Positions 44,556-47,783 of a stretch of 55,069 bases of DNA are shown piece by piece (the stretch's first letter is position 1; each line of letters starts with the position of its first letter). Under the pieces are notes generated by a model. It worked only from the letters and a program-made list of their open reading frames with translations, did no database searches and was not told the origin of the DNA. The translations under genes were made by a program, and so were the position numbers. Source of the stretch: Candidatus Kerfeldbacteria bacterium RIFCSPLOWO2_02_FULL_42_19 (GTDB taxonomy: Bacteria > Patescibacteriota > Patescibacteriia > HO2-48-17); assembly GCA_001818315.1 (NCBI GenBank), contig MHKF01000012.1, positions 194,080 through 249,148 on the forward strand. Reading direction: 5' to 3'.

Positions 44556-44604
44556 ACTCTATCGATAGTGTTTACTATGCTGAGTATAACACAATGGGTA
44601 GAGA
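44556..44604 (-). promoter_or_regulatory. two NrdR-box-like palindromes flanking an extended -10 (TGtTATACT) upstream of nrdR
   Basis: Box 1 at 44556-44571 is ACTCTATCGATAGTGT (10-bp perfect palindromic core, 13/16 to the recalled consensus acaCwAtATaTwGtgt). Box 2 at 44589-44604 is ACACAATGGGTAGAGA (11/16). The -10 TATACT lies at 44588-44583 on the minus strand. Confidence 0.45.
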
Positions 44605-44714
44605 TTTGAGAATTTTAAGAATCTCTGCTAATCTCCGCTGTACTTTTTTTTCCGTTCGTTTTGTATGCGGATTTTTTTGTTGAGAACATGAAGATGTTTG
44701 TGGATAACTTTCAT

Positions 44715-44804
44715 CATAACAAAAGAGGAGGAGGATAGGACTTTCGAAGCACACTGTGCATTGTTAGTGCTTCGAAAGTCCTATCCTCCTCCTCTTTTGT
44801 TATG
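44715..44804. repeat. perfect 38-bp inverted repeat with 14-nt loop
   Basis: 44715-44752 is the exact reverse complement of 44767-44804, checked base by base. A homolog lies at 14145-14236. Confidence 0.9.
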
Positions 44805-44880
44805 CGCGTTGCACAAACATGCAGGGTCTGTCACGAAATTCTACGATTTCACAGGCGGAAGCGTGTTCGTCGACAAACCC

Positions 44881-46167
44881 TTACATCATTTTTTTTCGGA
44901 TGAAGGTAGGAATTTCTAAATCTTCCTCAAGTTTTGTGGGTTTCGTCTCGTGTGTTATGGGTCGTGCTTCAATCGTTTCTTCTTTGCCAACAGTTTGCCT
45001 TCGAAATCCTCCGGCGTCTTTTGAGAGCGGTTCAGCCTCTTCTATTTTAATCTTCGAAGAAAATGGCGATTTTACAGCTGGTTTCACTTTGCGAGTCGCT
45101 TGTTTTCCTTGTGGTCCGAAACCCGTAGCCACGACTGTAATCTTGATTTCATCTTGTAAACTATCATCGATCACTGACCCAAAAATAATGCGTGCATTTG
45201 GATCAGTTGTTTCTGTAATAACTCGTGCCGCTTCATTGACTTCATACATCCCAAGGTTGGAACTTCCTGAGATAGTAAACAAGATCCCTTTTGCTCCATC
45301 AATAGACATTTCGAGCAGCGGACTATCGATAGCTGCTTTCGCCGCTTCTACTGCTCGGTTTTCCCCAGAAGCAGTTCCGATACCCATGAGAGCTGAACCA
45401 GCGTTTTCCATGACAGATTTTACATCAGCAAAATCAACGTTGATAAGACCTGGGAGAGTGATCAAATCTGAAATTCCTTGTACCCCTTGTCTTAAAACGT
45501 CATCCACAATTTTGAAGGCATCAAGCAGTGATGTTTTTTTGTCAATAATTTGGAGGAGGCGATCATTGGGGATAGTAATGATCGTATCGACTTTTGATTG
45601 GAGTTCTGTGAATGCATTCTCTGCAATCGCTTTTCGTTGTTCACCTTCGAATGCAAATGGTTTCGTTACGATAGATACGGTGAGTGCTCCTAAGTCTCTC
45701 GCGAGTTCCGCAATCACAGGCAGCGACCCTGATCCTGTGCCTCCGCCGAAGCCAGCGGTTAAAAAGACCATGTCTGCTCCTTTGAGGATTTTTTCAATGT
45801 CTTCTATGTTTTCTTCAGCTGCTCTGCGACCGACATCCGGATCCATACCTGCTCCGAGACCACGTGATGTATTCTGGCCAATGTGAACACGTACTGGGGC
45901 TTTTGAATGATGCAGCGATTGTGAATCAGTATTCACAGCAATCAATTCAATGCCTTTGATTTGTGCTTCTACCATGCGATTGATCGCCGCACAGCCAGCT
46001 CCCCCCGCTCCGAGCACTTTAATTTTTGCAAATGTTTCAATTTCTGGTTTCACCTCCGTTGGTTTATTGTTATGCGAACGTCCATTGTTTTGAGACACAG
46101 ATGTTCGTTTATTTTCGTTTGCCACCTCGTTTGTTATTAAAAGTAAGTTTGATAGGAATATATGCAT
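44881..46167 (-). CDS. ftsZ: cell-division GTPase FtsZ
   Basis: IKVLGAGGAGCAAINRM, GGGTGSG, and a C-terminal conserved peptide (DLEIPTFIRKK). Confidence 0.95.
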   Translation of the reverse strand: MHIFLSNLLLITNEVANENKRTSVSQNNGRSHNNKPTEVKPEIETFAKIKVLGAGGAGCAAINRMVEAQIKGIELIAVNTDSQSLHHSKAPVRVHIGQNTSRGLGAGMDPDVGRRAAEENIEDIEKILKGADMVFLTAGFGGGTGSGSLPVIAELARDLGALTVSIVTKPFAFEGEQRKAIAENAFTELQSKVDTIITIPNDRLLQIIDKKTSLLDAFKIVDDVLRQGVQGISDLITLPGLINVDFADVKSVMENAGSALMGIGTASGENRAVEAAKAAIDSPLLEMSIDGAKGILFTISGSSNLGMYEVNEAARVITETTDPNARIIFGSVIDDSLQDEIKITVVATGFGPQGKQATRKVKPAVKSPFSSKIKIEEAEPLSKDAGGFRRQTVGKEETIEARPITHETKPTKLEEDLEIPTFIRKKMM

Positions 46168-46335
46168 TTTCCTCCAAAAGTATCGTTCAACGCGTTCTTC
46201 CTATTCTTTATCCACTCGTATTCTAACTGTGGATTTTTAAATATGCAAGTTTATGAACAAAAAGAGTATTCAATTTATCATTCTTGAACACTTTTTTTAT
46301 TTGATTTCTACAACTGTTTTGTTTCTGAGATTCAT

Positions 46336-46493
46336 GCGAGAAAGGGAGGGCATAGGTTTTTTTCAAATGCGTTGTGATAAGTCACTGTATCAGATACAGT
46401 GGAAAGTGTGCCCTAAAACAACTCTTCCAAACACGATCATTCATGTTTGGGTATCACAGCATTTGAAAAAAACCTATGCCCTCCCTTTCTCGC
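46336..46493. repeat. 35-bp perfect inverted repeats enclosing 88 nt (MITE-like or large RNA stem-loop) in the ftsA-ftsZ spacer
   Basis: GCGAGAAAGGGAGGGCATAGGTTTTTTTCAAATGC at 46336-46370 is the exact reverse complement of 46459-46493. The stem extends by TGTGATA/TATCACA, and the spacer contains the palindrome CACTGTATCAGATACAGTG. Confidence 0.85.
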
Positions 46494-46538
46494 CCTTCCA
46501 CTCAGCAACAAAGAAAATGATTCTAATGTATAGCTTTA

Positions 46539-47783
46539 TTATGGCAACAGTGACCTAAACCACCTTTGCATTTTTTCGGTTGCATGGGAAAAAGATGAGA
46601 GTTTGTTGAGGCGAAAGCCTTTTTCCCTCGCTTGGTACTGCATGCCCCAACGTACTAATCCCGTTGCTGTTGTAAAAGCTGGATCTTGTATTTTATCAAT
46701 CGCTGTCGGGAGATCTCGTGGCACACCAAGCGAAGCTGGAAGACGGAATTGTTTTTTTGCGGCTTCAATGAGATCCGGGAGTTTTGCGCCTCCACCAGTC
46801 AGTACAACACCCGCGGGGAGTAAACCGTCTCGTTTAATATCGCGGAGTTCTTTATTGACGAGATGAAATATTTCTTCCACTCGTGCTTCAATAATGTCGA
46901 TGACTTCTTTGCGTGGGATGACTGCATTTTCATTTGAATCGATCGTTCCTAAATCAATTGTTTCGCGTTTTTGTACTTTTTCTGCTATTGCTGAACCAAA
47001 ACGGAGTTTGACTTGTTCTGCAATGTCTATGGAAGTACGAAGTCCTATAGCGATATCGTTTGTAATATGTCCGGCGCCAATCGGAAGTACTTTGGTATGT
47101 AATACATCGCCTTCCTCAAAGATCATAATACTCGTTGTAGTGCCTCCGAGATTGACTAACCCTACGCCGAGTTCTTTTTGTCGTTTTGTAAGGGTGCTTT
47201 CTGAACATGCGAGTACACTCATGACTAAATCGTCAATATCTACTCCGGTACGATAGATGCATTTGGTGAGATTTTTTATTTGGGATGACAGGCCGAGAAT
47301 AATTTGTGCATCCACCTCGAGTTTAATTCCGGTCATTCCGACAGGATCCTTAATATTTTTTTGATTATCTACAGAAAAATTTCGTGGGAGTACATGGAGA
47401 ATTTCGTAATTTGGAGGGGATGAGACTGTTTGCGCTGCTTCAATAACGCGCTGGATATCTTCTTCTTGAATTTCTCCATCAGCTTTAGCAACTGCTACGA
47501 CCCCGTGGCTATCCTGACAGGTAATGTGATGGCCATTGATAGAGACGAAAGCGTGCTCAATGGGTATGCCAGTCATGCGCTCAGCCTTTTCGAATGTTTG
47601 GGAGATACTTGTGACCGCATCTTCAATGCTTACAATATTTCCTTTGGAAATACCTTCACTCGGGTTTTCGGCAGCACCAATAATATGGAGTCCTTCTTGT
47701 CCATGAGTACCGACTTGTGCTATTACGACACGGATGGTTGTTGAACCTATATCGAGACCGGTAAAAATATCATCTTTTCGCAT
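46539..47783 (-). CDS. ftsA: cell-division protein FtsA
   Basis: Actin-fold motifs GLDIGSTTIRVVI and VNLGGTTTSI, plus a C-terminal amphipathic tail. Confidence 0.92.
   Translation of the reverse strand: MRKDDIFTGLDIGSTTIRVVIAQVGTHGQEGLHIIGAAENPSEGISKGNIVSIEDAVTSISQTFEKAERMTGIPIEHAFVSINGHHITCQDSHGVVAVAKADGEIQEEDIQRVIEAAQTVSSPPNYEILHVLPRNFSVDNQKNIKDPVGMTGIKLEVDAQIILGLSSQIKNLTKCIYRTGVDIDDLVMSVLACSESTLTKRQKELGVGLVNLGGTTTSIMIFEEGDVLHTKVLPIGAGHITNDIAIGLRTSIDIAEQVKLRFGSAIAEKVQKRETIDLGTIDSNENAVIPRKEVIDIIEARVEEIFHLVNKELRDIKRDGLLPAGVVLTGGGAKLPDLIEAAKKQFRLPASLGVPRDLPTAIDKIQDPAFTTATGLVRWGMQYQAREKGFRLNKLSSFSHATEKMQRWFRSLLP

What the first reader, a model, noticed from the sequence alone, without database searches (positions are those of the whole stretch)
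46336..46493. 35-bp perfect inverted repeats enclosing 88 nt inside the ftsA-ftsZ spacer
The ftsA-ftsZ intergenic region is unusually long at 371 nt. Within it, 46336-46370 (GCGAGAAAGGGAGGGCATAGGTTTTTTTCAAATGC) is the exact reverse complement of 46459-46493.

The pairing continues after a 2-nt bulge (TGTGATA at 46373-46379 with TATCACA at 46452-46458). The enclosed sequence carries its own 19-nt palindrome, CACTGTATCAGATACAGTG.

There are two readings. It may be a MITE-like insertion (terminal inverted repeats, about 158 bp, no ORF). It may instead be a large stem-loop in the ftsA-ftsZ co-transcript that would be cut by RNase III and so uncouple ftsA and ftsZ levels.

The 101-aa plus-strand track ORF that covers it is almost certainly spurious.
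Basis: seen in the sequence. Interest (0 to 1): 0.62.

Follow-up and report, generated by a model that had tools for sequence, protein, structure and literature searches.

The report
Palindromic dispersed repeat between ftsA and ftsZ
The 158-bp perfect hairpin between the cell-division genes ftsA and ftsZ is one of about ten copies of a small non-coding palindromic repeat found only in this groundwater Kerfeldbacteria (CPR) species. It is not a dedicated ftsA/ftsZ control element. It is unusual in that its outermost arms differ between copies yet stay perfectly self-complementary within each copy.

Summary
In detail: 46336-46370 and 46459-46493 are exact reverse complements, and the other details are as stated. 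The 231-nt region folds at -108 kcal/mol (z = -13).

The element is not unique. Nine complete, one truncated and one degenerate copy lie in this 1.16-Mb genome. All are intergenic, and each sits 6-45 nt after the stop codon of a gene, most of them housekeeping (recA, iPGM, ROK kinase and others).

No copy turned up in two pattern scans of 185,579 species genomes or in a covariance-model search of 400 genomes of the class. A sister strain (about 95% nucleotide identity) has 72 other letters where this genome has 257, so it lacks the element. More distant relatives carry a small terminator after ftsA. Like this genome, they have a promoter-like ftsZ motif, which here lies downstream of the element.

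The MITE-like reading survives in part: no target duplication, conserved termini or partner IS was found.

The anatomy is atypical. Outer 16-18-nt arms share 40% identity between copies but pair almost perfectly (22 covarying pairs). Inner arms share 87% and the apex 70%. Non-wobble mismatches are not rarer than wobbles, so nothing points to RNA-level selection. This is a new variant of a known kind, of moderate interest.

The parts
46336..46493 (.). Element e1, 158 bp: one copy of the dispersed palindromic repeat family. Its asymmetric apex is in the family's 'forward' orientation on the + strand, which is antisense to ftsA/ftsZ.
   Evidence: CM score 160 bits, E = 5e-29
46336..46351 (.). Outer arm, left (GCGAGAAAGGGAGGGC). 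This is the hypervariable zone: 24-62% identical to other copies, and perfectly complementary to 46478-46493.
46352..46379 (.). Inner arm, left (ATAGGTTTTTTTCAAATGC-GT-TGTGATA). This is the most conserved zone of the family (mean 87%). It contains the 2-nt bulge (46371-46372) that is present in all aligned copies.
46380..46451 (+). Asymmetric apex (mean 70% identity between copies). The predicted inner helices show no compensatory changes.
46383..46401 (.). A perfect 19-nt palindrome specific to e1. The other copies are only partly palindromic here. Three substitutions relative to the family consensus each complete a base pair.
46427..46450 (.). Small apical hairpin, CCAAACACGA / TCATGTTTGG
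   Evidence: (pair I6)
46452..46477 (.). Inner arm, right (TATCACA-GCATTTGAAAAAAACCTAT)
46478..46493 (.). Outer arm, right (GCCCTCCCTTTCTCGC), hypervariable zone
46318..46329 (.). Weak extra outer stem, left half (TTTGTTTCTGAG). It pairs with 46501-46512 at 11 of 12 positions. It is only marginally better than chance (5.6% tail of cross-copy controls).
46501..46512 (.). Weak extra outer stem, right half (CTCAGCAACAAA)
46299..46555 (.). Segment that a sister strain (about 95% identical flanks) replaces with 72 other letters. This is the empty-site allele. 240 nt of intergenic DNA here correspond to 55 nt there.
46220..46248 (-). Promoter-like motif upstream of ftsZ (-35 TTGCAT at 46248-46243, 17-nt spacer, -10 TAGAAT at 46225-46220). 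Three of four relatives carry a clear TTGnnn-17-TA(G/C)AAT at the same alignment position; L030 is only loosely similar. It lies 88 nt downstream of the element.
   Evidence: read from the sequence and alignment; the automatic scan did not list it because the -35 matches only 3 of 6
46539..47783 (-). ftsA. Its stop codon lies 45 nt upstream of the element in the direction of transcription.
44881..46167 (-). ftsZ

Best explanation
e1 is a copy of a young, lineage-restricted, non-coding palindromic dispersed repeat. It is of the MITE / REPIN / ERIC kind and is about 158 bp long.

Shown:
- It occupies the stretch between the ftsA stop codon and the separate promoter-like motif of ftsZ. Relatives carry a short intrinsic terminator at that place.
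- It is absent from that site in a sister strain.
- It has about ten paralogues after other genes.
- The long stem is almost purely Watson-Crick, although the outer 16-18 nt of the arms have diverged almost to randomness between copies.

Inferred:
- It arrived by insertion, or by import of an allele that already carried it.
- It persists because this position disrupts neither gene.
- The arms are kept matched at the DNA level, most plausibly by intra-hairpin template switching or gene conversion. That process is described for quasipalindromes and for stems maintained by replication errors (PMC8794818, PMC8604942).
- The conserved inner arms, with their invariant 2-nt bulge and the apex, are the part under constraint. 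They are probably the recognition module for whatever protein moves or binds the element.
- Its effect on ftsA/ftsZ is incidental at most: a very stable hairpin in the ftsA 3' untranslated region or in a read-through transcript.
For: - Copies: blastn, nhmmer and the covariance model find 9 complete, 1 truncated and 1 degenerate copy in the genome.
- Location: all are intergenic, 6-45 nt after a stop codon. The neighbouring genes include recA, iPGM, a ROK kinase, a DsbA-like gene, a GalT-like gene, the CCA-adding enzyme and a response regulator.
- Restriction to this lineage: 0 hits to two independent patterns in 185,579 species genomes. 0 of 400 genomes of the class and 0 of 20 nearest relatives by covariance model. 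The metagenome scan returned only the same organism, and the viral contigs held nothing real.
- Empty site: in run X15 one contig with 95% identical flanks joins 46298 to 46556 through 72 other letters. Run X16 gives the same 30 letters after 46298.
- Relatives: genomes at 69-74% FtsA identity have spacers of 152-284 nt with a small hairpin plus T-run after ftsA, and three of four have a clear promoter-like motif where this genome has its own.
- Three zones: outer arms 40% identity, inner arms 87%, apex 70%.
- Stem statistics: 41 pairs, 22 with changes on both sides, 54 compensated cells, 98% paired, 0 of 500 shuffles as good; slid controls give 4-7 such pairs.
- No wobble excess: over the arms plus the flanks reached by the local alignment there are 8 G.T, 4 A.C and 32 other mismatches. 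Within the stem proper, the outer 17 pairs have only 2 non-Watson-Crick cells in about 130.
- Orientation: the apex is antisense to local transcription in 7 copies and sense in 2.
- Non-coding and unknown to Rfam: no Rfam family matches. The frame from the ATG in the inner arm stays open over its full length in only 3-4 of 10 copies (read from the alignment).
Against: - No target-site duplication is visible at either the outer or the inner boundary.
- The termini are the least conserved part, the opposite of a transposase-recognised TIR.
- No autonomous element with the same ends exists in the assembly.
- The sister-strain difference is a replacement (257 nt for 72), not a clean insertion. The direction of the event, and whether it was transposition or allele import, is therefore not proven.
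- The closest paralogue is only 63-80% identical in the apex and 24-62% in the outer arms. No donor copy is present, which is odd for a recent insertion.
- The invariant bulge and the better conservation of inner arms and apex suggest some function beyond selfish persistence.
- No transcript data exist.
Confidence: 0.65

Rival explanations
1. It is a dedicated regulatory stem-loop in an ftsA-ftsZ co-transcript, cut by RNase III to uncouple the levels of the two genes.
For: The hairpin is very stable in the transcript orientation (-108 kcal/mol). It would be a good double-stranded RNA substrate. No canonical terminator lies between ftsA and ftsZ.
Against: About ten paralogues sit after unrelated genes. 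The element is absent from this site in the 95% sister strain and in all relatives examined. ftsZ has its own promoter-like motif downstream of the element. The apex is antisense here. Canonical terminators are rare genome-wide (9% of genes), so their absence here means little.
Confidence: 0.04
2. The family has been recruited by the host as a gene-end RNA hairpin that acts from either direction as a transcription block, an mRNA 3' stabiliser or an RNase III site. Selection on RNA pairing keeps the stems.
For: All 11 copies lie just after a stop codon, and none lies in a divergent (promoter-only) spacer, although such spacers make up 22% of intergenic DNA. e1 sits where relatives have a terminator. 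The palindrome folds in transcripts of either strand.
Against: Zero of about 10 independent loci in divergent spacers is not significant (p about 0.08). No U-tract follows the stem on either strand. There is no excess of G.U over other mismatches. No conservation exists outside one species. No RNA data are available.
Confidence: 0.15
3. It is a structure-specific DNA site. The folded inner arms, the bulge and the apex are recognised on single-stranded or cruciform DNA by a recombinase or HUH enzyme. The outer stem is regenerated by fold-back copying at each transposition.
For: The 2-nt bulge and apex asymmetry are invariant despite wholesale turnover of the outer stem. Non-Watson-Crick cells tend to lie in the conserved inner arms (10 of about 185) rather than in the hypervariable outer arms (2 of about 130); the difference was not tested for significance. 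Total length is uniform at 153-167 bp. Three copies lie within 2.3 kb around the xer gene. e1 has no donor copy with similar arms.
Against: No conserved cleavage or target motif flanks the copies. The sister strain's empty site does not contain either outer arm in the 60 of 72 letters recovered, so the arms were not copied from the local target. The outer arms still share a weak purine-rich consensus, so they are homologous rather than made from nothing. No enzyme link was tested.
Confidence: 0.15
4. The element encodes a small Cys-containing peptide starting at the ATG in the inner arm (MxCD.QLY.I.RKVCT..TLSNT..).
For: Copies e2, e3 and e6 keep an open frame of about 50-58 codons with similar residues (read from the sequences).
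Against: In e4, e5, e8 and e10 the frame stops after 1-9 codons. e7 has no ATG. e1 is frameshifted relative to e2, e3 and e6. The SD-like purine run lies 18-20 nt from the ATG. The 101-aa ORF has no Pfam match.
Confidence: 0.01

Closest known systems
ERIC / IRU elements of enterobacteria (about 127-bp imperfect palindromes in transcribed intergenic regions)
   Same: Size class. Whole-element palindrome. Non-coding and dispersed in intergenic DNA next to housekeeping genes. Either orientation occurs. Pairing is kept by compensatory changes. No obvious transposase.
   Different: ERICs are conserved in sequence along their length and are shared across genera. This family is confined to one species and a sister strain. 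Its outer arms are nearly unrelated between copies while remaining perfectly paired.
Correia elements (CREE/NEMIS) of Neisseria
   Same: Hairpin-forming intergenic repeats of about 100-160 bp that are co-transcribed with neighbouring genes. As RNA hairpins they can be RNase III substrates (from established knowledge).
   Different: Correia elements have conserved 26-bp terminal inverted repeats and a TA target duplication. Here the termini are hypervariable and no duplication is seen.
REPINs (REP doublets) mobilised by RAYT (Y1 HUH) transposases
   Same: A hairpin made of two inverted conserved modules (here the inner arms) with a less conserved spacer. No target duplication. Copies cluster around a recombinase gene (here xer). 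The family is genome-specific.
   Different: No RAYT link has been shown. REPINs are far more numerous. REPINs lack an extra outer stem that is hypervariable yet perfectly complementary.
Classical bacterial MITEs (for example RUP, Nezha, TIMEs)
   Same: Small, non-coding and multi-copy, with inverted-repeat ends and insertion polymorphism between strains.
   Different: Two defining features were not found: a target-site duplication, and conserved termini shared with an autonomous IS.
Hairpins created and maintained by replication template switching (PMC8794818; arm homogenisation in PMC8604942 and PMC13100816)
   Same: Perfect Watson-Crick stems with multi-nucleotide 'compensatory' changes and few G.U intermediates. 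e1 also has its own 19-nt palindrome, completed by three substitutions that each form a pair.
   Different: Those papers describe a mutational process, not an element family. Whether that process acts here is inferred and not shown.

Membership tests
MITE (miniature inverted-repeat transposable element) | Small, non-coding, multiple dispersed copies | tested here: met
   9 complete, 1 truncated and 1 degenerate copy of 153-167 bp. No conserved ORF.
MITE (miniature inverted-repeat transposable element) | Terminal inverted repeats conserved between copies, because the transposase recognises them | tested here: not met
   Each copy has inverted ends, but the terminal 16-18 nt are only 40% identical between copies. 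Conservation (87%) begins sub-terminally.
MITE (miniature inverted-repeat transposable element) | Target-site duplication flanking each copy | tested here: not met
   No direct repeats at the outer boundary. A palindromic TA/ATAT duplication at the inner boundary cannot be excluded.
MITE (miniature inverted-repeat transposable element) | A related autonomous IS with the same ends | tested here: not met
   No solitary inner-arm sequence anywhere else in the 18-contig assembly at up to 4 mismatches.
MITE (miniature inverted-repeat transposable element) | Presence/absence polymorphism (filled and empty sites) | tested here: met
   The sister strain has 72 letters in place of 257 at this site. It is a replacement rather than a clean excision or insertion.
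REPIN / RAYT system | A single-copy Y1 (RAYT) transposase gene flanked by the repeats | not tested
Three copies flank a tyrosine (Xer-type) recombinase gene, not a Y1 enzyme.
Structured non-coding RNA family | Conservation across species, strand-specific placement, and covariation that includes G.U intermediates | tested here: not met
   Found in one species only. Orientation is mixed (7 antisense, 2 sense). No G.U excess. No Rfam match. The apical helices show no compensatory change.
Intrinsic (Rho-independent) terminator | A GC-rich hairpin directly followed by a U-tract | tested here: not met
   No terminator-like site in 44600-47000. The T-run lies inside the 5' arm, not after the stem.
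Integron attC site | Conserved R''/R' boxes (RYYYAAC / GTTRRRY) at the base of the stem, and placement in a cassette array next to an integrase | tested here: not met
   The base of the stem is the hypervariable part. The copies are dispersed among housekeeping genes whose order is conserved in relatives.

The most novel reading that the evidence does not exclude
The family, together with the sister hairpin families of this genome that share the sub-apical TATATTTTC..AA motif, may be a self-templating fold-back element. Only the inner arms and apex would be inherited as a recognition module for a hairpin- or cruciform-binding enzyme. The outer stem of about 17 bp would be rebuilt, one arm copied from the other, at or after each move. 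That would explain four things: hypervariable but perfect termini of fixed length, mismatches confined to the conserved part, no target duplication, and no donor copy.
Probability: 0.15. Interest if true: 0.7.

Novelty: new variant of a known kind. Interest (0 to 1): 0.38.

Why it matters
For ftsA/ftsZ biology it matters little, because the hairpin is a passenger between a gene end and the next promoter. The family is more useful as a clean natural example in a minimal (1.16-Mb) CPR genome. Long perfect hairpins persist while their sequence turns over, and they do so without the wobble-pair intermediates that RNA-level selection would be expected to leave. That makes it a compact test case for DNA-level palindrome maintenance (template switching or gene conversion) and for how non-autonomous repeats spread in bacteria with very few mobile-element genes. 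It is also a warning for annotation. These elements break short-read assemblies at the arms, create spurious ORFs, and look like covarying structured RNAs.

Tried and rejected
- Rfam at permissive E-values returned only chance hits to microRNA and IRES models.
- The coding reading was rejected. The frame from the inner-arm ATG is broken in most copies, and the 101-aa ORF has no Pfam match.
- Target-site duplications: none at the outer boundary.
- Complementarity extending into the flanks: marginal for e1 only (5.6% tail) and absent in e3, e7 and e10. My automatic boundary finder failed for five copies.
- Partner IS or solitary ends: none.
- The idea that the outer arms are pre-existing terminator stems or copies of the local target is not supported. 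The recovered 60 of 72 letters of the sister strain's site contain neither arm.
- Terminator replacement could not be argued, because only 9% of genes have a canonical terminator.
- Strand bias of wobble pairs: not significant.
- Viral contigs gave pattern-only chance matches. One of the two metagenome hits was also chance.
- RNA-seq: no run holds ftsZ.
- Apex inversion: one low-coverage unitig in run X8 joins the flank to a flipped interior. However, 31-mers cannot span the 35-nt perfect arm, and four other assemblies agree with the window. I treat it as an assembly ambiguity.
- At e2, e6, e9 and e10, sister-strain coverage of about 4x was too fragmentary for clean calls.

Full report
**Observation.** The sequence is as described. 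Arms 46336-46370 and 46459-46493 are exact reverse complements (35 nt, 88 nt apart). After a 2-nt bulge (GT, 46371-46372) the pairing continues, TGTGATA against TATCACA. The enclosed 19-nt palindrome lies at 46383-46401. ftsA (46539..47783) and ftsZ (44881..46167) are on the minus strand (Pfam families), so the spacer is 371 nt. The region 46300-46530 folds at -108.3 kcal/mol as RNA (z = -13.2) and -65.9 kcal/mol as DNA (z = -13.1). Chance is not an explanation.

**Organism.** FtsA homologues carry source names of Candidatus Kerfeldbacteria (CPR/Patescibacteria), and the samples are groundwater. The genome is 1.16 Mb in 18 contigs at 43% GC. Only one other genome shares its GTDB family.

**It is a repeat family.**
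- blastn, nhmmer and a covariance model (R1) find nine complete copies. They are e1 (this one), e2-e5 on the same contig, e6 and e10 on contig C6, and e7/e8 in tandem on C17.
- There is also a truncated copy (C6:28092-28231) and a degenerate one (C2:36793-36930).
- All are intergenic and lie 6-45 nt after a stop codon. The neighbouring genes include recA, iPGM, a ROK kinase, a DsbA-like protein, a GalT/HIT-like protein, the CCA-adding enzyme and a response regulator. Three copies surround a Xer-type tyrosine recombinase gene.
- None of the 11 lies in a divergent spacer. Such spacers hold 22% of intergenic DNA, so this is a trend only.
- The asymmetric apex is antisense to local transcription in seven copies, e1 included, and sense in two.

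**Distribution.**
- Two independent degenerate patterns, one across the right arm and one across the apex, found nothing in one genome each of 185,579 species.
- The covariance model found nothing in 400 genomes sampled across the class (301 genera), nor in the 20 nearest relatives at E <= 1.
- The metagenome scan returned only a contig of the same organism, plus one chance hit.
- Viral contigs gave only pattern-level chance matches.
- Rfam has no match.
- The family is therefore confined to this species and its closest strain.

**Filled and empty site.**
- e1 is identical, and in the same orientation, in four other assemblies of the species (L024, L032-L034).
- Three 2020 groundwater runs (X15-X17) hold a sister strain. 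It differs at 20 of 436 and 4 of 86 positions in the flanks, which is about 95% identity.
- One 597-nt contig in X15 joins window position 46298 to 46556 through 72 other letters.
- Sixty of those letters were recovered: GTATACTTCCGAGGAATAACAATTTATTTT, then 12 unknown, then GAACTCGCGTTTTTTACGGTAGCAGGGATT. X15 and X16 agree on the first 30.
- The last 17 letters are the end of ftsA (..WFKSLLP*). So 55 intergenic nucleotides there correspond to 240 here.
- The recovered letters contain neither outer arm of e1.
- The event is a replacement rather than a clean insertion. Its direction, and whether it was transposition or import of a diverged allele, stays open.
- The sister strain does carry the family. 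A 205-nt contig matches the cores of e2 and e6 and has yet another purine-rich outer arm (..GAAGACGCAGAAGGGAGAG|CATA..).
- More distant relatives (69-74% FtsA identity) have spacers of 152-284 nt. Each has a small hairpin plus T-run after ftsA. Three of the four then have a conserved block ending in TTGnnn-17-TA(G/C)AAT; L030 is only loosely similar.
- In this genome the same kind of promoter-like motif (TTGCAT-17-TAGAAT, 46248-46220, minus strand) lies 88 nt downstream of e1. So ftsZ most likely does not depend on transcription through the element.

**Anatomy.** Alignment of eight copies (A1) shows three zones.
- The outer 16-18 nt of each arm average 40% identity between copies. A weak purine-rich consensus remains.
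- The inner arms average 87%. They read ATATATTTTTTCAAATGCG-TT-GTGATA and TATCAC-A-GCATTTGAAAAAATATAT, and include a 2-nt bulge present in every copy.
- The 78-column apex averages 70%.
- The long stem has 41 pairs. Twenty-two show changes on both sides (54 cells), and 98% of cells are paired. None of 500 shuffles reaches this, and slid controls give 4-7 such pairs.
- Compensation also occurs in the conserved part. In e7, TTCAAATGC/GCATTTGAA has become TTGAAACAC/GTGTTTCAA.
- The two predicted apical helices show no compensatory change.
- Element length is uniform at 153-167 bp. Complementarity stops abruptly at the outer ends. Only e1 has a marginal extra 12-bp stem in its flanks.

**RNA or DNA?**
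- In the outer 17 pairs only 2 of about 130 cells are non-Watson-Crick.
- Over the arms plus the flanks reached by the local alignment, mismatches are 8 G.T, 4 A.C and 32 other. Within the stem proper the counts are about 6 G.U, 1 A.C and 5 other. Neither shows a significant wobble excess of the kind RNA selection would be expected to leave.
- The hypervariable outer arms tend to be better paired than the conserved inner arms (2 of about 130 against 10 of about 185 non-Watson-Crick cells; not tested for significance).
- Together with mixed orientation and single-species distribution, this points to complementarity kept at the DNA level.
- The literature describes such a process: replication template switching that homogenises, extends and perfects inverted repeats (PMC8794818, PMC8604942, PMC13100816; found).
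- e1's private 19-nt palindrome fits this. Three substitutions relative to the family consensus each complete a pair.
- That this process acts here is an inference.

**What it does.**
- Most likely it does nothing specific for cell division. It sits in a permissive gap between the ftsA stop and the ftsZ promoter-like motif.
- In the ftsA transcript it would form a very stable hairpin. No U-tract follows, and the scan finds no terminator in 44600-47000.
- Canonical terminators follow only 9% of genes in this genome, so I cannot argue that e1 replaced one.
- No RNA run holds ftsZ from this locus.

**Wider context in the genome.**
- A scan for long inverted repeats shows several other hairpin families.
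- One family (TTTCGAAGCAC, a 14-nt loop, GTGCTTCGAAA) shares the sub-apical TATATTTTC..AA motif with this family. It has a copy right after ftsZ (window 44715-44804).
- Two apex-less hairpins (C3:14328-14403 and C11:38545-38620) carry TATATATTTTTTCA with an 8-nt loop.
- The covariance model gives a weak hit to one member of the 14-nt-loop family (C10:26024-26108, E = 5e-6).
- Earlier notes of this scan reached similar descriptions for other copies. I used them as leads only.

**Limits.**
- Sister-strain coverage of about 4x left e2, e6, e9 and e10 unresolved.
- A flipped-apex unitig in run X8 cannot be told from a de Bruijn graph ambiguity across the 35-nt arm.

**Verdict.** The element is a dispersed, insertion-polymorphic palindromic repeat, not a dedicated ftsA/ftsZ regulator. 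It does not meet the strict MITE definition: no target duplication, hypervariable termini and no partner IS. It is best called a new variant of the ERIC/REPIN/MITE kind. Interest is moderate and rests on the outer arms, which are hypervariable yet perfectly paired.

Noticed in passing
window 44715-44804: A perfect 38-bp-arm hairpin with a 14-nt loop lies right after the ftsZ stop. It belongs to a second hairpin family (..TTTCGAAGCAC-N14-GTGCTTCGAAA..) that shares the sub-apical TATATTTTC..AA motif with the family studied here. So both ftsA and ftsZ are followed by palindromic repeats.
   Followed up: partly
window 46220-46260 (minus strand); L025, L028, L029, L030 spacers: A block upstream of ftsZ (TTTTTGTGTTCA.A .. 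ACTTG.. 17 nt .. TAGAATA) aligns with the spacers of relatives that share only 69-74% FtsA identity. It is clear in three of the four (L030 is only loosely similar). It is probably the ftsZ promoter plus an upstream box of unknown role.
   Followed up: partly
window 46520-46547 (minus strand): A promoter-like site, TTGCCA-16-TAGAAT (10 of 12 matches), overlaps the last ftsA codons. Its -10 box lies in the segment that the sister strain lacks. If active, it would transcribe through the hairpin towards ftsZ. The scan found 5 such sites against 3.5 expected, so it may be chance.
   Followed up: no
genome contig C6:28092-30408 (loci L006, L055, L061): Three family copies (one truncated) lie within 2.3 kb. 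They bracket a Xer-type tyrosine recombinase gene and the adjacent response-regulator gene. This recalls REPINs flanking RAYT genes, but no functional link was tested.
   Followed up: partly
genome contigs C3:14328-14403 and C11:38545-38620: Apex-less 34-bp-arm hairpins carry the same TATATATTTTTTCA.. sub-apical motif with only an 8-nt loop. The C3 copy has pyrimidine-rich 5' arms. This suggests a common hairpin scaffold with exchangeable tips.
   Followed up: no
run X8, unitig across window 46336-46650: A low-coverage contig joins the right flank to the element interior in flipped orientation. This may be a real inversion between the 35-nt arms or a k-mer graph ambiguity. Four other assemblies show the window's orientation.
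   Followed up: partly
window 44819-45886 (+): A 355-aa ORF runs antisense inside ftsZ. It is presumably spurious, and is a reminder that long antisense ORFs occur in this genome.
   Followed up: no
whole genome: Only 89 of 961 genes tested have a canonical hairpin plus T-run within 120 nt downstream. Tens of long inverted repeats (arms of 20 nt or more) were also listed, several seen just after gene ends. How transcription ends in this organism is an open question.
   Followed up: partly
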